Origin: Anaerolineae bacterium
GTDB lineage: Bacteria; Chloroflexota; Anaerolineae; DRVO01
DNA: 64,000 nucleotides
NCBI GenBank assembly: GCA_040768685.1
Contig: JAXGMM010000001.1
Span: 553,279-617,278 of the forward strand
Reading direction: 5' to 3'
A model generated the notes under the pieces. The model did no database searches, was not told where the DNA came from, and saw only the letters and a program-made list of their open reading frames with translations. Positions 5,668 to 50,440 of this stretch are shown here, piece by piece (within the stretch, counting starts at the first letter, position 1; the number at the start of each line of letters is the position of its first letter). The translations under genes were made by a program, and so were the position numbers.

Positions 5668-5744
5668 CGGTACGCCTCCGGGCCATTGTATCCACATATG
5701 TAGACACATTGTACCACGGGCCGGACTCGACCTGCTAGGCCGGT

Positions 5745-6737
<993 letters not shown>

Positions 6738-6850
6738 AGCGGACTCCTGATAGGTGACAAGGGATCAGTGGTTAGTGGTTAGTGGACAGTGGGGAGTGGC
6801 TAACAGCTTACTCTGCCGCCCACTGGCCACTGGTCACTATCCACTAGCCA

Positions 6851-7564: not shown

Positions 7565-7685
7565 AGAGCAGTATCCTCAGACGGTGATGAGTGGATAGTG
7601 GACGGCGGCCAGCGGAGAGCCGAGCTCGCACGGGGGTGCGAACCCCTTGCGGAGAAACTCACCACTGGCCGCCGTCCACTGGTCA

Positions 7686-8696: not shown

Positions 8697-8736
8697 TTCA
8701 TCCTCTCCTGATGACCTCTGAGAACCTCACCCCCTC

Positions 8737-8835
8737 GATACTCCGCTGTGCGGAGTATCTGTACCCCTCTCCGACACGGAGAGGGGTTCCGGAGCCCCCT
8801 TCCCGGCGCGGGAAGGGGGTTGGGGGTTAGGTCAC
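8737..8835. repeat. GC-rich triple-hairpin repeat element (copy A)
   Basis: three consecutive perfect hairpins GATACTCCGC-tgtg-CGGAGTATC, CCCCTCTCC-gacac-GGAGAGGGG, CCCCCTTCCC-ggcgc-GGGAAGGGGG followed by TTGGGGGTTAGGTCA; same core recurs at 33115, 36538, 41471. Confidence 0.6.
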
Positions 8836-25827: not shown

Positions 25828-25862
25828 CGGGGACCCCTTCCGCCGGGCCTGCCGGCTGCTTG

Positions 25863-25892
25863 TTGCCGCTGGGTTGCGCGGCTACCTATAAT
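25863..25892 (+). promoter_or_regulatory. sigma70-type promoter, leaderless configuration
   Basis: TTGCCG-18nt-TATAAT ending 6 nt before ATG 25899. Confidence 0.5.
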
Positions 25893-25898
25893 CGCCGC

Positions 25899-28250
25899 AT
25901 GTCGGCCCACAGCACCATAATAAAGACGGCCTCCAGCCCTCGCCAGTTCCACATTCGTGGGCCGGTGCAGGCTGTGGCCCTGGCGGCAGTGGCGGTGGCC
26001 GCCGTGGCGCTGCGGTTCGGCGGCCTCAGCCGGCAAAGCCTGTGGGCCGACGAGGGTAACTCCTGGGGCATGGCCATTCGGTCGCTGGGCGAGATCGGCC
26101 CGGCGGCGGCGGGCGACATCCACCCCCCGTTGTACTACTACCTACTGAATCTCTGGTGCCGGCTCTTCGGGACCTCCGAGGCCGGCATGCGGTCGCTCTC
26201 GGCCCTGTTCGGCTGCCTCACGGTACTGGTCATCTACCTGTGGGCGCGGCGGATAGCGGGAGACTGGGCCGGAGTGGGGGCCGGGGTGCTGGCCGCTATC
26301 TCGCCGTTCGCCGTCTACTACTCGCAGGAAGCGCGCGCCTATGCGCTAGTCGCCCTCCTCACCGCCGTCGGATGCTGGACGCTCACGGAGTGCTTTCTTG
26401 CTCACGGCGAGGGGCGCCGGTGCCGCCGCTGGATGGTCGGCCACGTGCTGGCGACCGCCGGTCTCCTCTGGTCGCACTACCTGGGACTCGTGGTTCTGGT
26501 TCTGTACAACCTGGTGGCGGCTGCGTGGCTCTGGGGTCGGCTGGACCGGAGCGTGCGGCTGAAGGAATGGGCAGCGATGCAACTGGCGGCCGTCATCGTC
26601 TTCGTGCCTTGGCTGCCGCAGATGCTCGGGAGCGCCGGTTCCTGGCCGGCCATCAGCGCCCACGAGCCCCTGAGCTTCTATCTCTCGGAGCTGGCCCGCC
26701 TGTACACCTTGGGGCCGGGCGCGGAGGGCATGACGCGATGGGCTTGGCTGGCCCTAGCGCCGGCGGCCGTGGGCGTCGTAGCGGGGATGATGCGGGGACG
26801 TCACCGCCTTCTGTGGTCGCTGGTGATCCTGGCGGCGCTATGGCCTGCCCTGGCTCTGTGGTTGCTTTCGTTTCTCCGTCCTGCCTACCGCGCAAAGTTC
26901 CTGCTGCTCGGCCTTCCCGCCTATCATGTGTTGGCGGGTGCGGGGATGGCCGGGCCGGCGCTGTGGTCCGGGCGGCGCCGGGGCTGGGCTCTAGGTCTCC
27001 TGGTAGGTGCGGCGCTGGGAGCCCTGGCGTTTCCCGCCTCATGTAGCGGGCTCACCGGCTACCTTAGCGGTCGCCAGTCGGTGAAGGACGACTACCGAGG
27101 CCTGGCAGCGTACATCACCGCCGCGGCCGGATCGGACGGGGCGGTGGTGGTCAACGCGCCCGGCCAGATGGAGGTCTTCTCTTACTACTACCGCGGCGAG
27201 GCTCCCCTCTACGCCCTGCCGAGCAGTCGGCCGCCCGACGCCGCCACGCTGGAAGGGGAACTGGCCGCGATCGCCGCGGGCCATCCGCGCATCTTCTCGG
27301 TCATCTGGGCCACCGCGGAGAGTGATCCCGAAGGCGTCATGGAGCGGTGGCTTGACGCCCACGCCTACAAGGCATCGGACGTCTGGTTCGGCAACGTGCG
27401 CCTCACGCTCCATGAGACGCCCTCGTCCATGCCGCGGGAGCGTGAGACCCACGCCATCTTCGGCGACATCATCGCTCTCGAGTCGTATGCTCTGTCTGAG
27501 GCCGGCGTTCGTCCGGGGACGGCGGCGCCGGTGAGCCTGGTGTGGCGCCGCAGCGGCGTGGTAGCCGACGAGTACGCGCTGTTTGTTCAGGTCCTGGACG
27601 AGCGCAGCAACATCGTGGGCCAACGAGACGCGGCTCTCTCGGAGCGGCGGTCTGTGGCCGAGTGGCTTCCCGACGAAGAGATCGACGACAAGCAGGCGGT
27701 GCCCATCATGCTGGGGACGCCGCCGGGCGCCTACGCAGTGGTGGCGGGGTTATACAGCTTGACGACGGGCGCACGCTTGACGTTGCCCGACGGCAGCGAC
27801 CGGATGCAGTTGGGCACGGTGGAGGTGCTGCCCACGCAGGTGCTATCAGCCGGCGCGTTGCGAGCCACGCAGACTCAGGAGGTCGGGCTGGGCCCGCTGA
27901 GGCTGATGGCCTGGGATGTCTCGCCGCTGGGAGGCGCGCCGGGCGTGCAGGTGGAGACGGCGGCCGGTGCGCCGTTGTCGCTGGTGTTCTACTGGCGTGT
28001 CCTGGAGCCGGCAGAGGCACAGATGGAGTTCCTGCTCGACGCGGGCGGCCAGAGCCGACCCATCGGGCAGGTTCCGGCGCTCTCTCAGGCTCTGGCCCTG
28101 GGGCGGTGGGAAGTGGGGCAGACCTACCGCGATCCCCACATCGTGTTCCTTCCCGGCGACCTACAACCCGGCGAGTACCGGCTGTCGGTGGTGGCCAACG
28201 CGGGCGGCGGTCAGGGCCAGGTGGACCTGGGCCGCGTCCTGATCCGCTGA
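25899..28250 (+). CDS. GT-C fold glycosyltransferase, family 39/ArnT/PMT-like, with C-terminal duplicated beta-rich domain
   Basis: LWADEGNSW, HPPLYYYLL motifs of GT39/GT83 N-terminal loop; about 12 TM then about 330-aa soluble region containing two related domains (VSLVWRR...; LSLVFYWRV...). Confidence 0.75.
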   Translation: MSAHSTIIKTASSPRQFHIRGPVQAVALAAVAVAAVALRFGGLSRQSLWADEGNSWGMAIRSLGEIGPAAAGDIHPPLYYYLLNLWCRLFGTSEAGMRSLSALFGCLTVLVIYLWARRIAGDWAGVGAGVLAAISPFAVYYSQEARAYALVALLTAVGCWTLTECFLAHGEGRRCRRWMVGHVLATAGLLWSHYLGLVVLVLYNLVAAAWLWGRLDRSVRLKEWAAMQLAAVIVFVPWLPQMLGSAGSWPAISAHEPLSFYLSELARLYTLGPGAEGMTRWAWLALAPAAVGVVAGMMRGRHRLLWSLVILAALWPALALWLLSFLRPAYRAKFLLLGLPAYHVLAGAGMAGPALWSGRRRGWALGLLVGAALGALAFPASCSGLTGYLSGRQSVKDDYRGLAAYITAAAGSDGAVVVNAPGQMEVFSYYYRGEAPLYALPSSRPPDAATLEGELAAIAAGHPRIFSVIWATAESDPEGVMERWLDAHAYKASDVWFGNVRLTLHETPSSMPRERETHAIFGDIIALESYALSEAGVRPGTAAPVSLVWRRSGVVADEYALFVQVLDERSNIVGQRDAALSERRSVAEWLPDEEIDDKQAVPIMLGTPPGAYAVVAGLYSLTTGARLTLPDGSDRMQLGTVEVLPTQVLSAGALRATQTQEVGLGPLRLMAWDVSPLGGAPGVQVETAAGAPLSLVFYWRVLEPAEAQMEFLLDAGGQSRPIGQVPALSQALALGRWEVGQTYRDPHIVFLPGDLQPGEYRLSVVANAGGGQGQVDLGRVLIR

Positions 28251-28811: not shown

Positions 28812-29819
28812 GTGAACTCGCGGATAGAAGAAGAGAACGGCAACACCTGGATTCTGGTACTGGCGTTGGTGGCGGCCCTGGCATTGGTGGTCGCGTTTGT
28901 CATCCTACCTGCTCTCCGCAGGCAACCACCGCCGGCTCCGGCTACAGCTGTGGCCACTCTGGCGGCGGCGCCGGCACAAACCGGCCCGTCCCTGCGGGTG
29001 CAGGAGCACAGCGCCGGCGGCTTCGCCATCCTGGGCGAGGGCTGGCCGCGCGACGCCGCCGTCACGCTGCTGATCACCTCCAATCGGGGCGCGTCCGACT
29101 ATTGGCTCGGCCGGCTCCTGGCCGACTCGAATGGAGCCTTCCGGCGAGACGTTGCCTGGCGCAATGACTATCCAACCGGCGCGGGCGTCGAACTGGTGGC
29201 TCGCACGAGCGAGTTCGAGGTCAGGGCGCCGTTCGAGCTGCGCTCGGGCAGCCTCGATCCAGCTGTTCCTACCGCGACCGGCACCGCCGCACCCGGTGAC
29301 GCGACCGCGACTGCCACGCCGACCGTCACACCGACTGCGCTGCCGTCTCCGACGGCGTCGCCCACCGCCACGGTGACGCCAACTGCGACTCCCAGCCCGA
29401 GCCCGACGCCGCCGGCGACCCCGGCTGTGTTCTTCGGCTGGAAGGGGGAGTACTTCAACAACACCGATGTGAGCGGTGCTCCGGCGGTGGTCCGCGACGA
29501 CGAGATGATCGCCTTCGACTGGGGACAGGCCTACCCACTGCCCGGCGTGGGCGTGGACAACTTCAGCGTCCGCTGGACCAGGGAACTGGAGCTGCCGGCG
29601 GGCACCTACCGCTTCACATTGCGCGCCGATGACGGGGTGCGGCTGTGGGTGAATGAGGCGCTGCTGATCGACCGGTGGACGGCGGGGTATGCGACCACAG
29701 AGAGCGTGGTGCAACTGCCGGCCGGGGTGCACACGGTGCGAGTGGAGTACTTCGAGGCGACGGGCGAAGCACGGGTCTTTCTGGAGTGGGGCAGCGTGCT
29801 GTCGCTGCCGGCCCAGTAG
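28812..29819 (+). CDS. membrane-anchored protein with Pro/Thr/Ala linker and C-terminal PA14 domain
   Basis: N-terminal TM WILVLALVAALALVVAFVILPAL; linker TATGTAAPGDATATATPTVTPTALPSPTASPT; PA14 signature FFGWKGEYFNNTDVSGAP...DNFSVRWTRELELPAGTYRF...DGVRLWVNEALLIDRW. Confidence 0.7.
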   Translation: MNSRIEEENGNTWILVLALVAALALVVAFVILPALRRQPPPAPATAVATLAAAPAQTGPSLRVQEHSAGGFAILGEGWPRDAAVTLLITSNRGASDYWLGRLLADSNGAFRRDVAWRNDYPTGAGVELVARTSEFEVRAPFELRSGSLDPAVPTATGTAAPGDATATATPTVTPTALPSPTASPTATVTPTATPSPSPTPPATPAVFFGWKGEYFNNTDVSGAPAVVRDDEMIAFDWGQAYPLPGVGVDNFSVRWTRELELPAGTYRFTLRADDGVRLWVNEALLIDRWTAGYATTESVVQLPAGVHTVRVEYFEATGEARVFLEWGSVLSLPAQ

Positions 29820-31477: not shown

Positions 31478-32974
31478 CTACTTGAACGCGGCAGCGAACT
31501 CGCGGGTAAGCTGAAGATAGAGATCGCCATACTGGGCGCTCGGCTCGACATAAGTCCCCTCCACCCACTCATTCCAGCTTTGCACCAGCAGCCAGTCTGG
31601 GCCGCTGGCCGCAGCGGCGTCGTAGGTGGCGCGATAGAACGAGCCGGAGTCGCGCTCTCGCCGCTGGGCGGCCGAAGGAACGCGGGCGTCGGACCGGCAG
31701 CCGGCGCGGGTGTCGTCGTAGCCGGGCGAGATGGTGCCGACCCAGAGCTTAGGGCTGCCATACGTCGCCTCGGCGGCCCGCACCGACTCCGCCCAACGGC
31801 CGGCCTTGGCATAGCAGGCGGGATCGGTGGCGTGGGTGATCTTGTAGACGTAGAGGCCATCGAAGACCGAGAGGTAGGACGGATCAAGGCCCTCGACGAT
31901 CCACCAGGTCTGCCGCTGGGGGTCCACGCGATCGCGGATGGCCCGCCAGGCCTCGACAGGGCTGCCGCCGGGCACGCGCTGCATGTCCGCGAAGAAGATG
32001 ACCGGCTTACCATCCAGACGCAGGAAGTTGGGGTGTCCGCCGTACGTGCCGATGAGGTAGGAGAGCGCCTCAACCAGGCTGTCCTGCGATGGGCCGGGCG
32101 AGCCGTGCCACAGGTGGCGCAGGAAGACAACCGAGGACTGGAAGCCGGTGCCGCCCGATTGGGCCAGCAACTGGGCCATGTTGGCGTCGGTGCGTTCTCC
32201 GGGCGCGAACCAGTGGAGCAGGAAGCCGTCGATGCCGGCGCCAAGGGCCTGCTGGACATGGCGGCCGATGGCGGCCGGGTCGTCGGAGCCGTAGGGCTCG
32301 GCCGGCCGGTCGCCGCCGCTGATGTTGCAGTCGTCCCAGCCGTCCGCGTCGTACCAGGCCAGATAGGAGGCCAGCACCAGGCGGGGAACCTGCGGGTGGG
32401 CGGCGGCCGCCGGCTCTACGGGCGGCGCGGCCTCTGGCGCAGGCGCTTCGGCTTCAGGCGCGGGCGCCACGGTAGGCTCGGGAGTGGCGTCGGCTTGGGC
32501 CACGGTCTCGGGCGCGGAAGTGCGCAAGGCGGCCGCGGCTTCGGCGGTGGCGGAAGCCGCGGCCGCCGCGGCCGTCGCCTCAGCGAGGCTCTGCGCGGTG
32601 GCTTCCTGCCTCAGACGGGCCTCGGCGGTGTAACGGGCTACGGTAGTAGCGGCTTGGGTGACCCGAGCGGCGGTGGTGGCGCCGGCCTGGGCTACCTGGG
32701 TCGCGCGGAAGCCGGCGGCGGCTGCTGTTTCCGTGGCCGGTAGGTCGGCGGTCGGCGACGGAGTGGCGGTGGGCTCCGGCGGAACCGTTGCCGGGGCGAT
32801 GACGGTCGCGCCCGCCGTCGCAGCGGCGGTGGCGAGCGAAGCCGAGGGCGGCGTCACTACCGGCGCGGACGACAGCAATGAAAGCAGCACGAGGCTCATC
32901 CCGAACACGCTAGCGGTGAGCAGCCCCGAGGCGGGCGAGTGAGTTCGGTCTGTCGGCGTCTGCGGGCCGGACAT
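31478..32974 (-). CDS. secreted/membrane-anchored glycoside hydrolase, GH99-like, with Ala/Pro/Glu/Thr low-complexity linker
   Basis: N-terminal signal anchor; linker PEPTVAPAPEAEAPAPEAAPP; catalytic-domain blocks ASYLAWYDADGWD and LLVQSWNEWVEGTYVEP (E-x-x-E pair as in GH99 endo-alpha-mannosidases). Confidence 0.55.
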   Translation of the reverse strand: MSGPQTPTDRTHSPASGLLTASVFGMSLVLLSLLSSAPVVTPPSASLATAAATAGATVIAPATVPPEPTATPSPTADLPATETAAAAGFRATQVAQAGATTAARVTQAATTVARYTAEARLRQEATAQSLAEATAAAAAASATAEAAAALRTSAPETVAQADATPEPTVAPAPEAEAPAPEAAPPVEPAAAAHPQVPRLVLASYLAWYDADGWDDCNISGGDRPAEPYGSDDPAAIGRHVQQALGAGIDGFLLHWFAPGERTDANMAQLLAQSGGTGFQSSVVFLRHLWHGSPGPSQDSLVEALSYLIGTYGGHPNFLRLDGKPVIFFADMQRVPGGSPVEAWRAIRDRVDPQRQTWWIVEGLDPSYLSVFDGLYVYKITHATDPACYAKAGRWAESVRAAEATYGSPKLWVGTISPGYDDTRAGCRSDARVPSAAQRRERDSGSFYRATYDAAAASGPDWLLVQSWNEWVEGTYVEPSAQYGDLYLQLTREFAAAFK

Positions 32975-33114
32975 GGCTGGTCCTGTGGGCGAATGTGAGG
33001 CCGGAGTATACCAGCCGCACCGTCCATTGGGGTAGGCGGGGCTGTGTGGGTTGGCATCTGCTCCGACCGGTACGGCCTGGTGGGCCCTGGCGGCCGGACC
33101 CGACCCCCGCTGGT

Positions 33115-33224
33115 GGTCTCCAAGAGCGAGACCACTGCTCCCTTTCCCCAGGAAGGAAGGGGCCGGAGAGACCGATTCCGTTTCCCCCTTCCCGCGTAGG
33201 GAAGGGGGCTAGGGGGTTGGGTTC
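33115..33224. repeat. GC-rich hairpin repeat element (copy B)
   Basis: GGTCTC-caagagc-GAGACC, then CCCCCTTCCC-gcgta-GGGAAGGGGG CTAGGGGGTTGGGTTC; near-identical to 36538-36726. Confidence 0.6.
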
Positions 33225-33354: not shown

Positions 33355-33383
33355 TTGATTCTCGGCCCTTGGGCGCCTATAAT
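33355..33383 (+). promoter_or_regulatory. sigma70 promoter
   Basis: TTGATT-17nt-TATAAT, 45 nt upstream of ATG 33428 which has GGTAGGAGG SD. Confidence 0.55.
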
Positions 33384-33427
33384 CGGGTCTGTACCGTATG
33401 CGGCTCATACTGGGTAGGAGGCATCAC

Positions 33428-34132
33428 ATGGATCTCGGCAAGTCATTCACCTTCATGTTCGAAGACAAAGACTGGGTGGGCAAGATCCTCATAGGGGCGC
33501 TCTTCGCGCTGCTCAGCTTCGCGCTCGTGGGCGTTCCGTTCATCGTGGGGTATGTCCTGGAGTTGGTGCGCCGGGTGGCGGCCGGGCGAGACGACGTCCT
33601 CCCCGCCTGGGACGACCTAGGCGACAAGTTCGTCCAGGGGCTGGTCCTGCTGGTGATACTGTTCGTGTTCATGCTGCCGGCGACGCTTCTCAGCGGTTGT
33701 GTAGGCGCCTTCCTGGGCACGATGGCCGACACCGTGCGGAGCGACGCGGGGGCAACGATGTTCGGGCTGGGCTCAGGGCTCGTCGGGCTGCTGGCGGCGG
33801 CTTACGGGTTTGTTATCTGTCTGCTCACGCCTGCCATCGCTATCCGCTATGCGATGACGCGCGATTTCGGCGCCTCGTTCAACCTGGGCCAGATCTGGCG
33901 CATCGCGAGCGCCAACCTCGGCAACTACATCGTCGTGCTTCTCGTGACCTGGGTGGCCGGGCTGATCTCCGGCTTCGGAGTGATCGCCTGCCTCATCGGC
34001 GTGTTCGTGACCTACTTCTGGGCCATGCTGGTCCAGGGGCACCTCTACGGTCAGTACTGGCGCGAGCACCTCGCGGACGCGGCTCCGGCGCCCGCCGAGA
34101 CCACTCTCCCCAGCGAGCCGCTGAGCTTCTAG
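33428..34132 (+). CDS. DUF4013-like polytopic membrane protein
   Basis: MDLGKSFTFMFEDKDWVGKILIGALFALLSF...GYVLELVRRVAAG pattern and 4-6 TM helices; start at internal ATG with strong SD. Confidence 0.6.
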   Translation: MDLGKSFTFMFEDKDWVGKILIGALFALLSFALVGVPFIVGYVLELVRRVAAGRDDVLPAWDDLGDKFVQGLVLLVILFVFMLPATLLSGCVGAFLGTMADTVRSDAGATMFGLGSGLVGLLAAAYGFVICLLTPAIAIRYAMTRDFGASFNLGQIWRIASANLGNYIVVLLVTWVAGLISGFGVIACLIGVFVTYFWAMLVQGHLYGQYWREHLADAAPAPAETTLPSEPLSF

Positions 34133-36496: not shown

Positions 36497-36537
36497 GCCG
36501 TCTCCTGTTAGGGCGCGGAACCTGACCTCGCTCGTGG

Positions 36538-36726
36538 TCTCAAAGAGCGAAACTACCGCTCCCCTTCCCCAACAAGGGAGGGGGTCCGGAAGCCGCGCCG
36601 GTGCCGCAGAGGCCAATTCCGGTTCCCCCTTCCCGCGCAGGGAAGAGTCGGGCTGGGCCTTCGTGCCACTGTACAGTCCCCGGTTCCCCCTTCCGCGTCG
36701 GGAAGGGGGCTAGGGGGTTAGGTCAG
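36538..36726. repeat. GC-rich hairpin repeat element (copy C, internally duplicated)
   Basis: GGTCTCAAAGAGCGAAACTACCGCTCCCCTTCCCC...; two units CCGGTTCCCCCTTCCCGCGCAGGGAAG and CCGGTTCCCCCTTCCGCGTCGGGAAGGGGGCTAGGGGGTTAGGTCA. Confidence 0.6.
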
Positions 36727-36772: not shown

Positions 36773-37716
<944 letters not shown>

Positions 37717-37720
<4 letters not shown>

Positions 37721-39995: not shown

Positions 39996-42290
39996 CTACT
40001 GAGCGGTGAGGGGGAGCTCGACCCGGGCAGCGCCGTCGGCGAGCGGCAGGGCCTGGCCGCCCTCCAGAGCGTACATGCCGATCCTGAGCGCGACCACCGG
40101 GGCGCCGGCGGGCAGCAGCAGTGCGTGCCGGTCCTCAACCTCCTCGCCGGGCGCCCAGGTATCGGTGGGGCGCGTCCAGCCGGCGGGCACGGCGTCGCTC
40201 TGGGCGATGACGGCGCCGCTCGAGTCCAGCGCATGCACGAAGACCTTGTAGGAACGCGAGGGCGTCGCCTTGGCGCGCCAGTGCAAGCGCACGAGAACGG
40301 TGTCGCCTTCGACGGCGAAGGCCGTCTCCCTGAGGGTGATGCCGTCCGCGAACTCGGCATGAACACCGGACGCGGTCATGGCCTCGGGCGCTAAGGCGTA
40401 GAGGGTCAGGCGACGCTCGCCGGCGCTCTCCTGAAGGGCGCGGTAGCCGATTCCTGCCAGCCAGTCCCCAGTGGCTGAAGAGAATCCCTGGTCGAGGACC
40501 CAGAAGCGGCTGTACTCGGCTGCCAGCCGGTCCGCTACATCGTGCGGATAATCCGGCAGGGAGCAGGTAGCCAATCGGCCCCGGTAGCGATCAGAGACCA
40601 GCGTGGCGTCGCCGGGCGTGGTGGTGATGATCACATCGCCGGCCCTCTCCCGCTGCGCAATGGTCGCCAAGAGGCCGTCGAGAGGGAGCGAGCCGGCCGC
40701 GTGGGAGCGGGCGAGCGTGAAGGCGAGAGAACCTACCACCGCGAGGGCGGCGACGGCGGTGAGGATGGTTCCGTGGCCGGCCAGGGTGGAGCGAACCGCC
40801 ATGACCGACAGGACGAGGCCGGCAAGCAGCGCCCCCAAGCTCAGAGCGTCGACGGTACCGGCGGACGCCCAGGCGAAGTCCAGTGTGCCGAGGCCTAGGT
40901 GCGACCACTGGCCGACCAGGGGAGAGAAGCGCGGCGCCCAGAAGGTGCGCGGGTCGAACAGGGGCAGGCCGGTGCTGAGCAAGCTGTCCTGGAAGGGAGC
41001 AAAGTGGACGAGCGAGCCGGGTAGGTTCAGGACGAAGCCGACGGCCGCCAGTGCCGGCAGGCCGCTTCGCCAATGGCCGCCGCGCTCCCAGATGGAAGCT
41101 AGGCCGAGGGCGAGGAACGGCATGGCGGGGGCGAGGAAGCGGGGCCCCCAGCAGTACCCCCCGTGCCACATGAACCACTTGCCGTAGATGAGAACGTGGG
41201 CGGCGGCGATGGCCAGTGCCCCCCAGGCGACGTCCCGGTGTCGCCGCGTCAGGTCGCGGAAGCCGAAGAGGGCGAGGGCGAGCACGGGAGCGTACAGGAA
41301 GAGGCCGCGGCCGGGGCTGATGAGCAGACCGCTCACACCCTCCACGAGGTTGGCGCTGAACGACTCCTGGGCCAGGTAGCCGCTGGTGAGGGGGTTGCCG
41401 AAGCGAAGGTAGTTGAACCAGCCGGAGAGGGCCACGAACACGCCGAGGCCAACGGAGAAGGCGAGGATGTGGGGCAGACCTCTCCCCCGATCTCTCTCCC
41501 ACGGGGAGAGGGGAGCCTCTCCACCCCCTTCCTTCCCAGGGAAGGGGGCCAGGGGGTGGGGCAGACCTCTCCCCCGACCCCTCTCCCACGGTGAAAGGGG
41601 GGCCTCTCCACCCCCTTCCTTCTCAGGGAAGGGGGCCAGGGGGTTAGGTCTACCTACCCAGATCGCCAGGGCAAAGACGGGCGTCAGCGCGAGAGAGGTG
41701 GTGCGGGTGAGAGCGGCGAAGCCCAGACCGGCGCCCACACCGAGGGCCGCCGCCAGCGATGGCCGCCGGCGGAAGGCCAGCCAGGCAGCGAACGCGGCCA
41801 GCAGGGCCAGGCCGGTCAGGGGATCGCTGAAGTCGTGCTTGCCGTAGGGCAGCAGGGGCGTGGCGAGGGAAAGCGCCAAGGCGGCGGCCAACGAGGCTCC
41901 GGTCGAGTAGCCGAGAAGCGCCAAGCAGCGGTAGAGCAGCCAGCCGGTGGCGGCGGCCACCAAGGGGCTTGCCAGCAGTGCCGCCTGCAGGAGGCCGATC
42001 GCCCCTGCCCGCAGGCCGAGCCAGGCCAGGGGCAGGGCGGCGACGGTCTGGCCGAGGCCCTTGCGCGAGTAGAGGTCGCCGTCGGGGCCGAAGGTGCCTT
42101 GCTGCAGGCCCATCCAGCGATAGGCGTTCATGTCCAGGTCGCCGCGGCGGGCGAGGCTCTCGGTGGTGGCCAGCATGGCTAGGCCATCGCTGGAGTGGGG
42201 TACGCCGCTGAAGTTCAGGAATTGGACGGCGAGCAGGAAGACGAACAGCGCCAGCCCCACCCGGCGCCGGGTGCAGCGGTCGGCGCTCAT
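39996..42290 (-). CDS. GT-C fold membrane glycosyltransferase (ArnT/PMT-like) with C-terminal beta-rich domain; carries in-frame repeat insertion
   Basis: N-terminal FLNFSGVPHSSDGLAMLATTESLARRGDLDMNAYRW loop like GT39/GT83; about 13 TM; C-terminal domain similar to those of 25899-28250 and 42287-44389; start ATG 42290 overlapping upstream stop (ATGA). Confidence 0.7.
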   Translation of the reverse strand: MSADRCTRRRVGLALFVFLLAVQFLNFSGVPHSSDGLAMLATTESLARRGDLDMNAYRWMGLQQGTFGPDGDLYSRKGLGQTVAALPLAWLGLRAGAIGLLQAALLASPLVAAATGWLLYRCLALLGYSTGASLAAALALSLATPLLPYGKHDFSDPLTGLALLAAFAAWLAFRRRPSLAAALGVGAGLGFAALTRTTSLALTPVFALAIWVGRPNPLAPFPEKEGGGEAPLSPWERGRGRGLPHPLAPFPGKEGGGEAPLSPWERDRGRGLPHILAFSVGLGVFVALSGWFNYLRFGNPLTSGYLAQESFSANLVEGVSGLLISPGRGLFLYAPVLALALFGFRDLTRRHRDVAWGALAIAAAHVLIYGKWFMWHGGYCWGPRFLAPAMPFLALGLASIWERGGHWRSGLPALAAVGFVLNLPGSLVHFAPFQDSLLSTGLPLFDPRTFWAPRFSPLVGQWSHLGLGTLDFAWASAGTVDALSLGALLAGLVLSVMAVRSTLAGHGTILTAVAALAVVGSLAFTLARSHAAGSLPLDGLLATIAQRERAGDVIITTTPGDATLVSDRYRGRLATCSLPDYPHDVADRLAAEYSRFWVLDQGFSSATGDWLAGIGYRALQESAGERRLTLYALAPEAMTASGVHAEFADGITLRETAFAVEGDTVLVRLHWRAKATPSRSYKVFVHALDSSGAVIAQSDAVPAGWTRPTDTWAPGEEVEDRHALLLPAGAPVVALRIGMYALEGGQALPLADGAARVELPLTAQ
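41471..41643. repeat. tandem duplicated hairpin repeat (2 x about 87 nt) inserted in-frame within CDS
   Basis: two units GGGGCAGACCTCTCCCCCGA..CTCTCCCACGG.GA.AGGGG..CCTCTCCACCCCCTTCCTT.CAGGGAAGGGGGCCAGGGGGT; encodes PLAPFPEKEGGGEAPLSPWERGRGRGLPH twice. Confidence 0.65.
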
Positions 42291-44389
42291 CGCGGCACGA
42301 CTTGGGGGGCAGGGCCGACGGTCACGTCGGCGAGGACGCACGAGTCGCTGCCGGCGGCCGTAAGCAGACGATCGCCGGTCTCCGGATCGTACACGCCCAG
42401 GAGCAACCGGTACGTCTCGGGCGAGGACCCACCGAGGTCGATAGCGTGCCGATCCAGGACGTACCCGTTGCTCCACGCCGGGACGCTGTCGCTCTGCGCC
42501 AGGGGGCGGAGGTCCGGGCCTGCCAGATGGACGAAGACGGAGAGACCGTTGGCTACCGCGCTGCCCTGCCAGACGAGGGTCAGATTGAGGCGGTCGTCCC
42601 GGATCGTGGACTCCCAGCCCACCAACGTGGTCGCATCCGCGAACCGTACCTGCGCCGCCCTAAGGGCCGAGCGCGGGATCCAGTGGCTGAGGCTGTACGC
42701 GGCGAACTCGGTCTCGCCCACGAGATAGGCCAGGCGGCCAAGCGAGTCGAGGACGGCTGTCGACAGGCCGGAGTCGTCGCCGGATGCGAGCACGAGCCAG
42801 ATGCCTTTCGGCTGCAGGTCGACGACTTGCCGGTCGAGATGGGACGCGAGGTCGCCATCGGGGGCGCGGTCGTCCACGGTGCGGAGCGCCAGGCGGCGGT
42901 GCAAGTGGGGGTAGAAGCGCCCCAGGTCCGGCTGGCGGAGGAAAAGCAGCGTCTCCCCCGGTTCACTCACTTGGCCGAGGTACTCGATAGCGGGACGTGC
43001 CGGCTCGACCTGGTAGCGGGAGCGTGCGTAGGCGTCCAACAGCCGCCAGGAGAGCAGAGCCAGGGCGATGCCGGCCGCCGCGCCGGCCCACGGCGCCAGT
43101 CGGCGCAGATGGGCGGTGGGCCAGGGCTTGTCGAGATAGTCCAGGAGCAGGCCGCCGGCCAGGAGGGCGAGGAGACCGGTGCGCGCGGTGGTGGTGAGCA
43201 CGAGGAGCCAGGTCTCGCCGGGCAGCAGGATGAAGAATCCATGCGATTCCAGGTAGTTGAAGAAGGTGAGGCTGAGGGCCAACACCACTCCCCGCCAGTC
43301 GGGCCAGAGCACGGCGACGAAGGGCAGAAGGTAGAGCAGGTACTGCGGGCTCCAGCCTTTGCTGAGCAGGAAGAGCAGGGTGAAGCTCAGGCCGGTGAAG
43401 GCAACGGCGGTGCGGGGGCGGTCCCAGCGGGCGCGGGCCAGGTACAGCCGCACGTAGACCGCGACCAGGACCAAGCTCAACAGGCCGTAGGGCACGCGGC
43501 CGTCCCAGGCGGGGCCGCTCAGGGCGGCCAGGTCGCGGACGTCGGCGGGGGCGACGCCGAAGCCGTAGTAGCCGTCCAGCAGCGCCCAGATCGTCTGCCA
43601 GGGCGGCCGGATGCGCTGGATGTCCAGCGGGGCCAGTAGCAGACGCGGGTTGTGCGCCAGGAAGGGCGCGGCGACGGCGATGACGGCGGCCCCACCCGCG
43701 ACTAGGTAGCGCAGGCCGCGGCCCCAGTGAAACCCGCGCCATCGCCGGGGCAACTCCGGCGCCAGTCGCCTGAGGCCCACGGGGAACACCAGGGCGGGGA
43801 GCAGCTTCGTCATTACGCCCAGGCCGCCGGCCACCCCGGCTAACAGCCAGCGCTGCTCCAGGACCAGCCAGAGCGCGAGCATGACCAGGAAGGTGGGCAG
43901 GCTGTCGAAGTGGGCCTGGGCGGTGTAGGCGGGCAGGAAGAGGAGGGCGTAGAACACAGCCGAGCGGAGGGCGACCGCTCGCCCCCGCATCCGGTCAGCG
44001 AGAGCGTACACCAGGGCGAGCGTGCCCGCCTCGGCGGCGATGAGCACCGAGCCGAGCAGGAGGTCGAAGATCAGTTGCGGCTGCTCCCAGGGGGGCAGGA
44101 GGAGGGAGAGCCGATAGAGCCCGACCAGCAGCCAGGGGAAGATGGGTGGGTAAGGGCTCCAGATATTGACATAAGGGTACAGGCCGCGGTCGGAGAGGGC
44201 GGCGAACTCACGGTAGTAGTAGTAGTCGGAGAAGTCGGCGAGGAAGCCGCCCGGCCGCAGCAGCCACAGCGAACCGAGACGGAAGGCGACCAAGAGAGTC
44301 AGAAGCAGAAGGAAGTCGCGGCGGTGATTGTCGGCGGCGGTCCTGGGGTTCACGGCGCCACTGTACAAGCGTGAGCGGGCCGCTGGCAA
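42287..44389 (-). CDS. GT-C fold membrane glycosyltransferase (DUF2029/GT87-like) with C-terminal beta-rich domain
   Basis: multiple TM, Tyr-rich N-terminus YYYYREFAALSDRGLYPYVNIWSPYPP, MTKLLPALVFP; C-terminal LTLVWQGSAVANGLSVFVHLAG...LLLGVYDPETGDRLL related to other two GT-C genes; start codon uncertain (TTG 44389). Confidence 0.65.
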   Translation of the reverse strand: MPAARSRLYSGAVNPRTAADNHRRDFLLLLTLLVAFRLGSLWLLRPGGFLADFSDYYYYREFAALSDRGLYPYVNIWSPYPPIFPWLLVGLYRLSLLLPPWEQPQLIFDLLLGSVLIAAEAGTLALVYALADRMRGRAVALRSAVFYALLFLPAYTAQAHFDSLPTFLVMLALWLVLEQRWLLAGVAGGLGVMTKLLPALVFPVGLRRLAPELPRRWRGFHWGRGLRYLVAGGAAVIAVAAPFLAHNPRLLLAPLDIQRIRPPWQTIWALLDGYYGFGVAPADVRDLAALSGPAWDGRVPYGLLSLVLVAVYVRLYLARARWDRPRTAVAFTGLSFTLLFLLSKGWSPQYLLYLLPFVAVLWPDWRGVVLALSLTFFNYLESHGFFILLPGETWLLVLTTTARTGLLALLAGGLLLDYLDKPWPTAHLRRLAPWAGAAAGIALALLSWRLLDAYARSRYQVEPARPAIEYLGQVSEPGETLLFLRQPDLGRFYPHLHRRLALRTVDDRAPDGDLASHLDRQVVDLQPKGIWLVLASGDDSGLSTAVLDSLGRLAYLVGETEFAAYSLSHWIPRSALRAAQVRFADATTLVGWESTIRDDRLNLTLVWQGSAVANGLSVFVHLAGPDLRPLAQSDSVPAWSNGYVLDRHAIDLGGSSPETYRLLLGVYDPETGDRLLTAAGSDSCVLADVTVGPAPQVVPR

Positions 44390-49743: not shown

Positions 49744-50151
49744 TCATGACCTTGCCGCTTCGGGCAGCGACTGGCAGACAAGATCGAACACAAAGCGGGC
49801 CGCCTCGAACGCTGCCACGAACTCCTCGGTTCCGGGATCCTCAACGTCGCCAGGGTACCGGAACATGACCGCGTACGGCGTAAGCAGTTCTGCCGCATCA
49901 AAGCAGGCGGCGAATGAACTGCCTAGCGCCACTGCTTGCTGGACCAATACGCTCAGATCGTGCGTCTTGCCAAACCTGATGTCATGGTGGGTCAGGTACG
50001 CTTTGAGGGACTTCTCCGCTGCCTGCTGACAGTGAAAGACCGCGACATCCAGGTACGGGTCGCGAGGAGATGCCAGCCTTTCGGCGGCGCCCAGATCACG
50101 CTGAGCCTTCAGCAACCATGCGCGTACTTGCTCCAGCTTGGCGTCGTCCAT
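49744..50151 (-). CDS. HEPN domain protein (HepT-like toxin)
   Basis: Rx4H motif IRFGKTHDL, AEKSLKAYL; start at internal ATG 50151; overlaps MNT gene by about 56 nt. Confidence 0.65.
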   Translation of the reverse strand: MDDAKLEQVRAWLLKAQRDLGAAERLASPRDPYLDVAVFHCQQAAEKSLKAYLTHHDIRFGKTHDLSVLVQQAVALGSSFAACFDAAELLTPYAVMFRYPGDVEDPGTEEFVAAFEAARFVFDLVCQSLPEAARS

Positions 50152-50440
50152 AGAGAGACCGACCCTCCTCACTGATCCTGGCCTCCAGAGAGGCATGGAC
50201 TCGTCTTGACAGCTCGTACTCCCTGCGGGTCCGAACGAGTACGTCCACGGCGGTGTCTAGGCCCCGCAGCGATCGATAGGCGCGGGTAGCCCGACGAGCC
50301 GGCTTTTCATCACTCTCCGAGACAATCACCATCACGTCGATGTCGCTGTCTTCACCGGGGACGCCCCAGGCCTGCGACCCAAACAGGAGGATCTCCTCGG
50401 GCTGGAACTCAGCCACCAGGCGACGGACAATCTCGCTCAT
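50096..50440 (-). CDS. nucleotidyltransferase (MntA-like antitoxin)
   Basis: LFGSQAWGVPGEDSDIDVMVIV GS-x9-DxD motif. Confidence 0.65.
   Translation of the reverse strand: MSEIVRRLVAEFQPEEILLFGSQAWGVPGEDSDIDVMVIVSESDEKPARRATRAYRSLRGLDTAVDVLVRTRREYELSRRVHASLEARISEEGRSLYGRRQAGASTRMVAEGSA

What the first reader, a model, noticed from the sequence alone, without database searches (positions are those of the whole stretch)
36538..36726. Family of GC-rich multi-hairpin interspersed repeats (REP/MITE-like) in intergenic regions
Near-identical elements occur at 8737-8835, 33115-33224 and 36538-36726. Each combines perfect hairpins (GGTCTC-n7-GAGACC; CCCCTCTCC-n5-GGAGAGGGG; CCCCCTTCCC-n5-GGGAAGGGGG) and ends with CTAGGGGGTT(A/G)GGTC. 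All copies sit at 3' ends of genes, between same-strand or convergent genes, like REP/BIME elements. Copy C is internally duplicated. No transposase is nearby, so they are non-autonomous.
Basis: seen in the sequence. Interest (0 to 1): 0.6.

Follow-up and report, generated by a model that had tools for sequence, protein, structure and literature searches.

The report
BoxC-like triplex-hairpin interspersed repeats
The flagged sequences are real copies of a small GC-rich palindromic repeat of the known BoxC / "intrastrand triplex motif" kind (a hairpin followed by a mirror-image G-rich tail); the same repeat occurs in this Chloroflexi genome, in many other phyla and in their phages, sometimes in frame inside genes, and its function is still unknown.

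Summary
The repeat family is real and not due to chance. The window holds four loci, not three.

The conserved unit is a homopyrimidine/homopurine hairpin (CCCCCTTCCC-loop-GGGAAGGGGG), a 2-3 nt linker, and a G-rich tail (GGGGGTTAGGTC). The tail is the mirror image of the purine arm, with T or A opposite A. This is the architecture of E. coli BoxC / PIT / "TMECO" intrastrand-triplex repeats (Holder et al. 2015). Full elements are inverted doublets with the tails outward (GACCT...AGGTC).

- **Distribution:** the same unit occurs in Chloroflexota, filamentous Cyanobacteria, Planctomycetota, Latescibacterota, Desulfonema and tailed-phage contigs.
- **Mirror rule:** the tail follows the arm across at least 7 sequence flavours.
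- **Gain and loss:** a syntenic relative has 15 nt where the window has 275 nt (copy C). An orthologue carries one unit where the window has two, and other orthologues have none.
- **No partner enzyme:** no transposase is present in the window, and no gene recurs next to copies elsewhere.
- **Not a terminator or known RNA:** the hairpins lack a T-run, and no Rfam family matches.

Verdict: a new member of a known kind of non-autonomous palindromic repeat. How the element spreads and what it does remain inferred.

The parts
8722..8833 (+). Copy A. It consists of: left terminus GAACCTCACCCCC (8722-8734); extra hairpin GATACTCCGC-TGT-GCGGAGTATC (8737-8759); hairpin CCCCTCTCC-GACAC-GGAGAGGGG (8764-8786); triplex module CCCCCTTCCC-GGCGC-GGGAAGGGGG-TT-GGGGGTTAGGTC (8795-8833). 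It lies between the sulfatase gene (8832-10235, minus), whose TGA stop at 8832-8834 overlaps the tail, and the GFO/IDH oxidoreductase gene (7686-8696, minus).
   Evidence: Sequence. Pfam for the flanking genes. As ssDNA it folds into a closing stem plus three hairpins: -44.7 kcal/mol, z -7.8. As mRNA-sense RNA: -80 kcal/mol, z -7.7. Triads 9/10. nhmmer E 1e-8.
33097..33223 (+). Copy B. It consists of: left terminus GACCCGACCCCC (33097-33108); hairpin GTGGTCTC-N7-GAGACCAC (33113-33135); degenerate pyrimidine/purine hairpin (33139-33162); triplex module CCCCCTTCCC-GCGTA-GGGAAGGGGG-CTA-GGGGGTTGGGTT (33184-33223). It lies between the divergent starts of GH99 (31478-32974, minus) and DUF4013 (33398-34132, plus).
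   Evidence: Fold z -3.7. Triads 11/11 when the loop A is counted as part of the arm. nhmmer E 2.6e-9.
36518..36724 (+). Copy C (the flagged one). It consists of: degenerate left terminus GAACCTGACCTC (36518-36529); degenerate GTGGTCTC hairpin (36535-36557); imperfect hairpin (36560-36584); first core CCCCCTTCCC-GCGCA-GGGAAG with its tail lost (36625-36649); second, complete triplex module CCCCCTTCC-GCGTC-GGGAAGGGGG-CTA-GGGGGTTAGGTC (36686-36724). It lies between prs (36773-37720, minus) and pfkB (probable ATG at 36497, minus).
   Evidence: A syntenic relative (L218) has only 15 nt between prs and pfkB, against 275 nt here. The copy was assembled independently in L248. Triads 9/10.
41477..41563 (+). 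Copy D, unit 1. A canonical 87-nt inverted doublet: GACCTCTCCCCC-GA-TCTCTCTCC-CAC-GGGGAGAGGGG ... CCCCCTTCC-TTCCCA-GGGAAGGGGG-CCA-GGGGGTG. It lies in frame inside the minus-strand ORF 39996-42476.
   Evidence: TRF period 87 x 2.0, 93% matches. nhmmer hits on both strands.
41564..41650 (+). Copy D, unit 2. A tandem duplicate of unit 1, ending in the full tail GGGGGTTAGGTC (41639-41650). Together the two units encode RPNPLAPFPEKEGGGEAPLSPWERGRGRGLPH PLAPFPGKEGGGEAPLSPWERDRGRGLPH in a variable loop of the membrane protein.
   Evidence: In the protein alignment, orthologue P0002 has one unit at this site and nine other homologues have none. DNA comparison with L218, L219 and L220. It matches the doublet pattern.
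39996..42476 (-). Host gene of copy D. A polytopic membrane protein, 826-aa ORF; the public protein P0001 is 764 aa and 100% identical. Some homologues carry PMT_2 / glycosyltransferase annotations.
   Evidence: No Pfam family reaches threshold for this sequence itself.

Best explanation
These are copies of a BoxC/PIT-type "intrastrand triplex motif" repeat, a small, non-coding, non-autonomous palindromic element.

**Architecture.** The unit is a 9-11 bp homopyrimidine/homopurine hairpin with a variable 3-6 nt loop, a 2-3 nt linker, and a G-rich third segment. That segment is the mirror image of the purine arm: G opposite G, and T or A opposite A. On single-stranded DNA of the G-rich strand it could fold back antiparallel onto the hairpin as a purine-motif (R.R-Y) triple helix. 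Two units of different flavour usually sit as an inverted doublet with the tails outward. This gives MITE-like termini (GACCT...AGGTC) and a long alternative hairpin.

**Shown here.**
- The architecture itself.
- The mirror-rule covariation of tail and arm across flavours.
- Very wide distribution, including phages.
- Gain and loss between close relatives.
- Tandem duplication.
- Tolerated in-frame insertion into protein loops.

**Inferred.**
- The element behaves as selfish DNA. It would be copied to new sites in trans by an unidentified factor, or by a replication or repair process acting on the folded single strand.
- Its main effect on the host would be local structural instability and incidental stable hairpins in transcripts, rather than a dedicated regulatory role.
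For: 1. **Non-chance family.** 7 matches against 0.02 expected, and repeat families D4/D6/D8.
2. **Triad rule in the window.** The five plus-strand modules give 9/10 to 11/11 valid triads.
3. **Triad rule across genomes.** Of 236 polypurine hairpins from the other loci, 157 are followed by a mirror third strand with at most 1 mismatch.
   - Among 98 "bystander" hairpins of other flavours, which were not selected by their tail, 67 obey the mirror rule against 34 for a direct-repeat model.
   - For asymmetric arms in that bystander set, mirror beats direct 50 to 8.
   - Shuffled tails score 0.742 (maximum 0.766) against 0.839 observed.
   - The base opposite an arm A is T 300, A 108, other 5. 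Opposite an arm G it is G 1109, A 88, T 5.
4. **Same organisation as E. coli BoxC/TMECO.** This covers C stem, loop, G stem, TTA/CCG loop, G third strand, heterotypic inverted doublets, and loops less conserved than stems (Holder et al. 2015, PMC4666352). The lldD-trmL doublet of MG1655 shows it directly. The exact TMECO pattern also occurs alongside the other flavours in the related loci L081/L001 (one phage contig), L131 and L193.
5. **Doublets.** 35 distinct doublets were found, including copy D.
6. **Distribution.** In viral contigs, 41 of 111 matches carry the full hairpin.
7. **Gain and loss.** prs-pfkB is 15 nt in the relative against 275 nt here. One unit in orthologue P0002, two here, none in nine other homologues. 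L219 and L220, from relatives, carry no module in 28 kb.
8. **In-frame copies elsewhere.** Copies sit in frame in a phage TerL nuclease domain and after a portal domain, and at a second site in P0002.
9. **No partner gene.** No transposase in the window and no recurrent neighbouring gene in 1.8 Mb of loci.
Against: - Triplex formation in vivo has not been demonstrated, even for E. coli TMECO. It forms in vitro for ssDNA but was not seen in dsDNA or by in vivo DMS footprinting (Holder 2015).
- The window sequences do not match the strict TMECO consensus.
- TMECO was reported as always intergenic and not linked to phages, unlike this family.
- The main flavour has one systematic mismatched triad (A opposite G in TTAGG).
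- Common descent of copies inflates the copy counts. The covariation argument really rests on about 7 flavours, of which 3-5 are asymmetric and therefore informative.
- No mobilising enzyme, target-site signature or transposition intermediate was found, so mobility is inferred only from presence/absence.
- The copy number in the source genome itself could not be measured.
Confidence: 0.7

Rival explanations
1. REPIN-type element. The doublets would be REP doublets mobilised as single-stranded hairpins by a REP-associated tyrosine (Y1/HUH, RAYT) transposase encoded once per genome.
For: - Inverted doublets of hairpins that can refold into one long hairpin.
- Stems conserved while loops vary.
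- No target-site duplication.
- All triplex-competent modules of copies A-C lie on the strand with positive GC skew. That fits a single-strand or lagging-template process, but n = 3.
Against: - No GTAG/CGTC tag next to the hairpin (sequence; Di Nocera 2013).
- No Y1 transposase among the window's ORFs.
- No recurrent neighbouring gene in 1.8 Mb around 200+ copies.
- The Nostoc punctiforme RAYT-associated REP is a different sequence.
- Near-identical units across phyla and in phages are unlike REPINs. REPINs are described as lineage-specific and co-evolving with their RAYT.
- A RAYT model does not explain the mirror third strand.
Confidence: 0.1
2. Classical MITE. A deletion derivative of a DDE-type insertion sequence, recognised through its terminal inverted repeats GACCT(N2)CCCCC ... 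GGGGG(N2)AGGTC and moved by cut-and-paste in trans.
For: - Terminal inverted repeats with conserved outermost bases (R)ACCT...AGGT(Y).
- Presence/absence between relatives.
- Size of about 85 nt.
- Nesting inside a larger palindromic element in Nostoc.
Against: - No direct target-site duplication in 35 doublets. Instead the flanks tend to continue the inverted repeat.
- Single units (half elements) are very common and equally conserved.
- Loops and spacers differ in nearly every copy, unlike a recent burst from a master copy.
- No parent IS with these termini was seen in any locus.
Confidence: 0.1
3. A host-selected RNA or transcription element. It would act as an mRNA 3'-end stabiliser, an intercistronic insulator or an unconventional terminator, like some REP/BIME copies.
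For: - Copies A and C lie between same-strand genes, directly after a stop codon.
- Extremely stable RNA folds: A is -80 kcal/mol, z -7.7.
- Rough gene-context counts show about a 2:1 excess of the orientation that places the C-rich strand in the mRNA: 34 against 16 between co-directional genes.
Against: - No T/U run; none of the hairpins is called terminator-like.
- Copies sit in frame inside ORFs, including a phage terminase and portal, and between divergent promoters (B).
- No Rfam family matches.
- E. coli PIT elements showed no promoter or terminator activity (Hoyne & Maher 2002, as summarised).
- The T-for-A substitutions in the third strand suit a DNA purine-motif triplex. According to the literature quoted, RNA cannot form that triplex, and the substitutions spoil a pyrimidine-motif triplex on the C-rich strand.
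- The gene calls behind the orientation counts are crude.
Confidence: 0.07
4. G-quadruplex / i-motif element. The G-runs of arm plus tail would fold into a quadruplex rather than a triplex.
For: The junction of the two D units (GGGAAGGGGGCCAGGGGGTGGGG) has four G-runs of 3 or more, and all units are very G-rich.
Against: - Typical units have only three long G-runs.
- Flavours such as GGAGAGGGG-TT-GGGGGTGAGG lack regular G3 tracts.
- A quadruplex does not need, and does not explain, the position-specific mirror relation between A in the arm and T/A in the tail.
Confidence: 0.03

Closest known systems
E. coli BoxC repeats = PIT (potential intrastrand triplex) elements = TMECO motif (Hoyne & Maher 2000/2002; Holder et al. 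2015, PMC4666352)
   Same: - Order of parts: C-rich stem, 3-6 nt loop, G-rich stem, 2-3 nt second loop (TTA/CCG there; TT/CTA/CCA/CCG here), G-rich third strand obeying G.G-C, T.A-T and A.A-T triads with 0-1 mismatch.
- Inverted doublets with the tails outward that combine two different types.
- Loops less conserved than stems.
- No associated genes.
- Loci vary between close relatives.
- The exact TMECO pattern co-occurs with the window's flavours in some related loci.
   Different: - Different arm and tail sequence; the strict TMECO consensus has no match in the window.
- A conserved AGGT(C) terminus.
- Copies A-C carry extra non-purine hairpins.
- The family is found in tailed-phage contigs and in frame inside genes, whereas TMECO was reported as always intergenic and not on phages or plasmids.
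- Host range extends to Chloroflexota, Cyanobacteria, Planctomycetota and others.
[quoted passage not shown] 2015)
   Same: That paper reports hundreds of G/C-rich triplex motifs in Microcystis, Anabaena variabilis, Nostoc PCC 7120 and Thermus thermophilus. The Nostoc, Anabaena and Tolypothrix copies found here are very probably among them.
   Different: The paper gives no sequences or anatomy for those motifs in the text I could read. Identity with this family is therefore inferred, not checked. Chloroflexota, phage and intragenic copies are not mentioned.
REP / BIME and REPINs with RAYT transposases
   Same: Short GC-rich extragenic palindromes, often as inverted doublets, with conserved stems and free loops. 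They are non-autonomous and lie between genes of one operon.
   Different: No GTAG/CGTC tag, no RAYT found, a mirror third strand, cross-phylum sequence identity, and intragenic copies.
Rickettsia palindromic elements (RPE) and other MITEs that insert in frame into genes
   Same: A palindromic repeat tolerated in frame inside unrelated protein-coding genes, adding a peptide to surface loops. Here these are the membrane protein, the phage TerL and the phage portal (review PMC10969869).
   Different: RPEs are about 100-150 bp, confined to Rickettsia, and have no homopurine mirror structure. No sequence relationship is evident.
Small dispersed repeats (SDR) of Nostoc (Elhai et al. 2008)
   Same: From memory only: very small (21-27 nt) mobile repeats in filamentous cyanobacteria that nest inside one another and inside hairpins. 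The Nostoc copies here are likewise nested in a larger palindrome.
   Different: The paper was not available, so I could not compare sequences. This is a lead, not a test.

Membership tests
BoxC / PIT / intrastrand triplex motif (class II, purine motif) | Pyrimidine stem, 3-6 nt loop, complementary purine stem, short second loop, then a third purine/T segment antiparallel-matching the purine stem (G.G-C, A.A-T, T.A-T), stem at least 8, at most 1 mismatch | tested here: met
   Window modules at 8795-8833, 33184-33223, 36686-36724, 41524-41563 and 41611-41650 give 9/10 to 11/11 triads. The mirror rule holds across flavours in other genomes.
BoxC / PIT / intrastrand triplex motif (class II, purine motif) | Match to the E. 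coli TMECO consensus CCCTCNCCC-N3-6-GGGNGAGGG-N3-GGGNGAGGG | tested here: not met
   0 matches in the window. Matches occur in related loci L081/L001, L131 and L193, and in the E. coli control L245. The window copies therefore share the architecture but are not TMECO in the strict sense.
BoxC / PIT / intrastrand triplex motif (class II, purine motif) | Frequent inverted doublets combining two different motif types, tails outward | tested here: met
   Copy D and 34 other distinct doublets, all heterotypic. The E. coli lldD-trmL doublet has the same layout. The description is in Holder 2015.
BoxC / PIT / intrastrand triplex motif (class II, purine motif) | Stable intramolecular triplex of the single strand in vitro (CD/NMR/UV) | not testable with these tools
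   Nearest-neighbour folding models only Watson-Crick hairpins.
BoxC / PIT / intrastrand triplex motif (class II, purine motif) | Exclusively intergenic; not on phages, plasmids or transposons (as reported for TMECO) | tested here: not met
   Copy D is intragenic. Copies occur in phage TerL and portal genes, and 41 full units occur in viral contigs.
REP / REPIN | Conserved GTAG or CGTC tetranucleotide at the foot of the hairpin | tested here: not met
   The sequences of all copies show no such tag. The conserved flank is the G-rich tail ending in AGGT(C).
REP / REPIN | A RAYT (Y1 transposase) gene flanked by the repeats in the same genome | tested here: inconclusive
   None in the 64-kb window and none recurrent near copies in 1.8 Mb of other loci. 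Whole genomes could not be searched.
MITE (DDE-type) | Terminal inverted repeats | tested here: met
   (R)ACCT-N2-CCCCC ... GGGGG-N2-AGGT(Y) in 35 doublets. A closing stem forms in the folds of A and B.
MITE (DDE-type) | Direct target-site duplication and a parent IS with the same termini | tested here: not met
   No direct repeats flank the 35 doublets. Instead the flanks tend to be inverted-complementary. No transposase lies between outward-facing termini.
Intrinsic (Rho-independent) terminator | GC-rich hairpin followed by a T/U run | tested here: not met
   No terminator-like call at any copy. The tail is G-rich on one strand and C-rich on the other.
Any Rfam RNA family | Score at or above the family gathering threshold | tested here: not met
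   0 hits in the window. In the permissive scan, every match scored far below its family's gathering score (best E-value 0.009, miRNA precursor models), i.e. noise. Six related loci gave only a tRNA and a group II intron elsewhere in the locus.

The most novel reading that the evidence does not exclude
Across at least 7 sequence flavours and several phyla, the third strand changes together with the hairpin according to the purine-motif triad code. The A-to-T substitutions favour the G-rich DNA strand only. This would be evolutionary (covariation) evidence that an intramolecular DNA triple helix is the form actually selected or recognised in cells.

On this reading the element is a horizontally spreading, phage-borne mobile DNA. 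It would be copied by a still-unknown mechanism that recognises a folded triplex/hairpin single strand, with no transposase encoded nearby. It would also routinely donate peptide inserts to proteins.
Probability: 0.25. Interest if true: 0.7.

Novelty: new member of a known kind. Interest (0 to 1): 0.4.

Why it matters
- **Annotation.** The finding adds a Chloroflexota genome, probably from activated sludge, to the hosts of BoxC/PIT-like triplex repeats. These elements should be masked or labelled. They create spurious ORFs rich in P/L/G/E/R and add 29-58 residue inserts to real proteins.
- **Biology.** These repeats have lacked a function since the 1990s, and in vivo triplex formation has never been shown. 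Three observations make the question more tractable, if confirmed on complete genomes:
  1. The third strand follows the arm by the triad code across flavours.
  2. The same units occur in distant phyla and in tailed phages.
  3. They can sit in frame in essential phage genes.

  Together these point to horizontal spread and to selection on the folded single strand. They also suggest concrete tests, such as phylogenetic profiling for a partner enzyme and biophysics on defined oligos.
- **Otherwise** it is an ordinary member of a known class of small repeats.

Tried and rejected
1. **Rfam.** The gathering scan of the window, a permissive scan of copy D and a scan of six related loci gave nothing relevant.
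2. **Literature search by sequence words.** GGGAAGGGGG / CCCCCTTCCC and the termini returned only unrelated eukaryotic and viral papers. The useful hit came only from CCCCTCTCC / GGAGAGGGG plus "cyanobacteri".
3. **Papers checked.**
   - The Thiomargarita MITE paper, a DGR preprint and the Thermomicrobium genome paper were not relevant.
   - Elhai 2008 on SDRs is not held.
   - The N. punctiforme REP from the REPIN paper is a different sequence.
4. **Search for an autonomous parent.** Pairs of outward-facing termini 60-4000 nt apart contained only ordinary genes. All-against-all clustering of 4957 ORFs from the loci found only generic families (histidine kinase, ABC-F, methyltransferase) and phage head and tail genes (portal, terminase, tail tube), none close to the elements.
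5. **Metagenome scan with the B/C-specific hairpin** (GTGGTCTCNAAGAGCGARAC). All 24 hits were coding or chance matches, not elements. This used the single metagenome scan without gain.
6. **BLAST of a canonical doublet against cultured phages.** No match, probably because of low-complexity masking.
7. **Protein search with the 62-aa element-encoded peptide.** No hit at E <= 0.001.
8. **Exact-protein look-ups** for the sulfatase, P0001, DUF4013 and the oxidoreductase found nothing.
9. **Organism.** The source organism could not be named, and the copy number in its genome could not be measured.
10. **Rejected readings.**
    - Protein-coding minigene: loop lengths vary, so the frame is not kept.
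    - CRISPR: no regular spacing.
    - Telomere-like TTAGGG: a coincidence within the tail.
Full report
**1. Observation**

The shared core is CCCCCTTCCC-N5-GGGAAGGGGG followed by (N2-3)GGGGGTT(A/G)GGT(C/T).

- With up to 3 mismatches the hairpin pattern has 7 matches in the window, against 0.02 expected from dinucleotide shuffles.
- The repeat finder groups the cores into families D4, D6 and D8 at 64-87% identity. The copies are therefore related but not near-identical, and loops and spacers differ everywhere.
- A fourth locus was missed: two tandem 87-nt units at 41477-41650 (TRF score 310).
- A profile built from copies in other genomes finds full units only at these four loci in the 64 kb.
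- Copy C is present, with one SNP in 361 nt, in an independently assembled metagenome contig, so it is not an assembly artefact.

**2. Anatomy**

Each element ends on the right in a hairpin-plus-tail unit. It begins on the left with a C-rich terminus complementary to the tail:

| Copy | Left terminus | Coordinates |
|---|---|---|
| A | GAACCTCACCCCC | 8722-8734 |
| B | GACCCGACCCCC | 33097-33108 |
| C | degenerate GAACCTGACCTC | 36518-36529 |

As single strands, A and B fold into a closing stem formed by the two termini plus three internal hairpins.

| Copy | Molecule | Free energy | z-score |
|---|---|---|---|
| A | DNA | -44.7 kcal/mol | -7.8 |
| A | RNA, mRNA sense | -80 kcal/mol | -7.7 |
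| B | DNA | -36.6 kcal/mol | -3.7 |

Copy D is the canonical form seen in other genomes: GACCTCTCCCCC-NN-(pyrimidine arm)-loop-(purine arm)-spacer-CCCCCTTCC-loop-GGGAAGGGGG-CCA-GGGGGTTAGGTC. It is an inverted doublet of two hairpin-plus-tail units with the tails outward.

Copies A-C differ from this form. They carry an extra, unrelated hairpin exactly between the left terminus and the first pyrimidine arm:
- A: GATACTCCGC-TGT-GCGGAGTATC.
- B: GTGGTCTC-N7-GAGACCAC, which is degenerate in C.

That hairpin was found nowhere else.

**3. Gene context**

All flanking genes are ordinary chromosomal genes.

- **A** lies between a sulfatase and a GFO/IDH oxidoreductase, both on the minus strand. The sulfatase TGA stop overlaps the last bases of the tail.
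- **C** lies between prs and pfkB, both on the minus strand.
- **B** lies between the divergent starts of a GH99-like gene (minus) and a DUF4013 gene (plus).
- **D** lies inside the minus-strand ORF 39996-42476.

About 60 predicted and alternative ORFs were tested, covering almost all of the ~54 predicted genes, and none hits a transposase, integrase or phage family. None of the hairpins is followed by a T-run. No Rfam family matches.

**4. The intragenic copy**

The 826-aa ORF is a real polytopic membrane protein. A 100% identical public protein (P0001, on a 2.09-Mb NCBI contig) and more than 300 homologues exist, a few annotated as PMT_2-type glycosyltransferases.

In the alignment, the window protein carries RPNPLAPFPEKEGGGEAPLSPWERGRGRGLPH plus a second, near-identical 29-residue unit in a variable loop. 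The closest orthologue (P0002, 63% identity) has exactly one unit at the same place. The other nine homologues have unrelated short loops.

The DNA comparison shows that the single unit in L218 and the two units here are the canonical doublet read on its C-rich-first strand. The element was therefore gained in the common ancestor of these two lineages. It stayed in frame and was later duplicated in tandem here. P0002 carries a further single unit in frame at a second site (PPLPAQGRGQGGLG).

**5. Gain and loss**

L218 is syntenic with the window. Its prs stop and pfkB start are 15 nt apart, whereas the window has 275 nt that include copy C. Two other relatives (L219 and L220, 28 kb together) carry no unit at all.

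**6. Distribution**

- **Viral contigs.** A scan with GGGAAGGGGGNNNGGGGKT gave 98 stretches. 41 of 111 matches have the complete hairpin-plus-tail in both AT-rich and GC-rich contexts.
- **Genome collection.** The hosts were Chloroflexota (Anaerolineae, Chloroflexia, Dehalococcoidia, Thermomicrobiales, Ktedonobacterales), filamentous Cyanobacteria (Nostoc, Anabaena, Tolypothrix, Calothrix, Oscillatoria), Planctomycetota (Gemmataceae), Latescibacterota, Desulfonema limicola, Binataceae and others.
- **Phages.** The viral contigs are genuine tailed phages. Contig L081 encodes TerL, portal, prohead protease and capsid. It carries eight units, including in-frame copies within the C-terminal part of the TerL nuclease domain region and after the portal domain.
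- **A cultured cyanophage.** A published primer from cyanophage N-1 (GGGGAGAGGTTTGGAGAGGGGT) is the left arm of the Nostoc-type element.

The copy number in the source genome itself could not be measured.

**7. What defines the unit**

Units come in flavours.

| 3' arm | Tail |
|---|---|
| (A)GGGAAGGGGG | GGGGGTTAGGT |
| GGAGAGGGG | GGGGGTGAGGT or GGGGGAGAGGT |
| GGAGAGAGG | GGAGAGAGGT |
| GGGGAGGGG | GGGGAGGGGT |
| GGGAGGGG | GGGGGTGGGT |
| GGGGGAGGGG | GGGGGTGGGGT |
| GGGAGAGGG | GGGTGAGGG |

In every case the tail is the mirror image of the purine arm, with G opposite G and T or A opposite A.

- Of 236 distinct polypurine hairpins in the fetched loci, 157 are followed by such a strand with at most one mismatch.
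- Among 98 hairpins of flavours that were not selected by my search patterns, 67 obey the mirror rule against 34 for a direct-repeat model.
- For asymmetric arms in that unselected set, mirror beats direct 50 to 8.
- Shuffling tails among those unselected units lowers the mean match from 0.839 to 0.742 (maximum 0.766 in 500 shuffles).
- The base opposite an arm A is T 300, A 108, other 5. Opposite an arm G it is G 1109, A 88, T 5.

This is the triad code of an antiparallel purine-motif triple helix (G.G-C, T.A-T, A.A-T). T is used in place of A, so the complementary C-rich strand would place A opposite A and could not form a pyrimidine-motif triplex. This follows from the established triad rules. 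Any selection for triplex potential therefore concerns the G-rich DNA strand.

**8. Comparison with what is known**

This architecture has been described. E. coli BoxC repeats were re-described as potential intrastrand triplex (PIT) elements by Hoyne & Maher (2000, 2002), and as the TMECO motif by Holder et al. 2015 (PMC4666352). The TMECO consensus is CCCTCNCCC-N3-6-GGGNGAGGG-N3-GGGNGAGGG.

That paper reports for TMECO:
- 23 copies in MG1655, all intergenic, with no strand bias.
- Five inverted pairs that always combine a type A with a type B motif.
- Loops less conserved than stems.
- No link to phages, plasmids or transposons.
- No promoter or terminator activity.
- A stable triplex for the single strand in vitro, but no signal in duplex DNA or in vivo.
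- More rearrangement at such loci between strains.
- Very many G/C-rich triplex motifs in Microcystis, Anabaena, Nostoc and Thermus.

The MG1655 lldD-trmL spacer shows the same doublet layout as copy D. The strict TMECO pattern has no match in the window. It does occur next to the other flavours in the phage contig L081/L001 and in L131 and L193. I therefore file the window elements as members of the architectural class (BoxC/PIT-like intrastrand-triplex repeats), not of TMECO in the strict sense. The intragenic and phage-borne copies and the hosts outside Proteobacteria and Cyanobacteria go beyond what that paper describes.

**9. Mobility and mechanism**

*Shown:* presence/absence between relatives, tandem duplication, nesting, in-frame intragenic copies, and occurrence in phages.

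*Not found:*
- No mobilising gene in the window.
- No gene recurs near copies in 1.8 Mb of loci. Clustering 4957 ORFs gave only generic families and phage head and tail genes.
- No transposase lies between outward-facing termini.
- No target-site duplication was seen.

Instead, the flanks of the 35 doublets tend to continue the inverted repeat with locus-specific sequence. The mean perfect extension is 1.66 nt, against 0.53 in flank shuffles with a maximum of 1.2. This could mean insertion into pre-existing palindromes, or longer variable termini. In Nostoc the doublet sits at the centre of a larger palindromic element.

My committed reading is that the element is selfish, non-autonomous DNA. 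It would be copied in trans, or by a replication or repair process acting on the folded G-rich single strand. Its host effects would be incidental: local instability such as the 87-nt duplication, peptide inserts, and very stable transcript hairpins.

The rivals are less well supported, for the reasons given in their entries: RAYT-driven REPIN, DDE-type MITE, a host RNA element, and a G-quadruplex.

Rough gene-context counts show about a 2:1 orientation bias (34 against 16 between co-directional genes). The gene calls are crude and doublets are nearly symmetric, so I give this little weight.

**10. Source organism**

Homologues with names come from Anaerolineae and Chloroflexi MAGs. Proteins identical to the window's ClpX and Prs occur in a JGI metagenome whose contigs are labelled 'Soeholt' (sample 3300000506) and in the NCBI metagenome assembly GCA_002049745.1. 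'Soeholt' suggests, from memory, a Danish wastewater treatment plant. The organism is probably an activated-sludge member of the Chloroflexota, and I could not name it.

**11. Verdict**

- The element is a new member of a known kind, with some features that may be new: phage carriage, in-frame copies, and third-strand covariation.
- Function and mode of spread remain unknown.

Noticed in passing
window 6763-6853 and 7579-7690: A second, unrelated type of intergenic palindrome. Its left arm is built of heptamers NAGTGGN (CAGTGGT TAGTGGT TAGTGGA CAGTGGG GAGTGGC) and its right arm of their complement CCACTRG (TRF 6820-6853, period 7 x 4.9). It is reminiscent of cyanobacterial STRR heptamer repeats. 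It lies between minus-strand GFO/IDH, sulfotransferase and GFO/IDH genes.
   Followed up: partly
window 8737-8759, 33113-33135, 36535-36557: Copies A, B and C each carry an extra non-polypurine hairpin at the same internal position, between the left terminus and the first pyrimidine arm. A's hairpin differs in sequence from the one shared by B and C. This looks like nested insertion of other mini-palindromes. The B/C hairpin was absent from 220 other loci, and metagenome hits were only coding or chance matches.
   Followed up: partly
L218 2313-2361 (orthologue of the window's membrane protein): A single triplex unit inserted in frame at a second site of the orthologous gene (PPLPAQGRGQGGLG). 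Here the G-rich strand is the sense strand, and the window gene lacks this insertion.
   Followed up: partly
L081 (IMG/VR contig IMGVR_UViG_3300002120_000044; L001 is the same contig reversed): An HK97-type phage head module (TerL, portal, prohead protease, capsid) carries eight units, all on the strand opposite to the genes. They include in-frame copies within the C-terminal part of the TerL nuclease domain region and after the portal domain, and one unit that matches the strict E. coli TMECO consensus.
   Followed up: partly
L107, L112, L140, L148, L161, L186, L202 (Nostoc and relatives): In Nostocales the doublet is embedded at the centre of a larger palindromic element whose arms read ...cttttcacgtgatctggaaa[doublet]tttccacatgacgtgaaaag.... 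This is an element within an element.
   Followed up: no
L085 (viral contig), 1301-1779 and 6925-7264: Clusters of four and two units share a conserved ~55-nt sequence upstream of each unit (GGGGGTGGGTCGCCCCGCGCGC...GGGATCACTCCTCCCGGCGCCA). This suggests a longer composite repeat in that phage.
   Followed up: no
PMC4916379 (cyanophage N-1): The PCR primer CR3R (GGGGAGAGGTTTGGAGAGGGGT), used to amplify the phage's CRISPR region, equals the left arm of the Nostoc-type element. This cultured phage therefore appears to carry a copy next to its CRISPR array.
   Followed up: no
window 4997-5709 (minus) and 49744-50196 (minus): A PIN (VapC-like) / Phd-YefM toxin-antitoxin pair, and a stand-alone HEPN-domain protein.
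   Followed up: no
window 39996-44389 (minus) and 25860-28250 (plus): Two adjacent large polytopic membrane proteins (826 and 700 aa) have no Pfam family above threshold, although some homologues carry PMT_2. A third PMT_2 protein lies at 25860-28250, followed by a PA14-domain protein at 28812-29819.
   Followed up: no
window 5745-6737 / 7686-8696 and 19965-21110 / 21197-22315: Diverged paralogue pairs lying close together account for the longest direct repeats in the window, at 72-75% identity: two GFO/IDH oxidoreductases separated by a sulfotransferase gene, and two adjacent amidohydrolases (Pfam).
   Followed up: yes
window 33355-33383 (plus): The only sigma-70-like promoter match near a copy (TTGATT-17-TATAAT, 10/12) lies upstream of the DUF4013 gene and outside copy B.
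   Followed up: no
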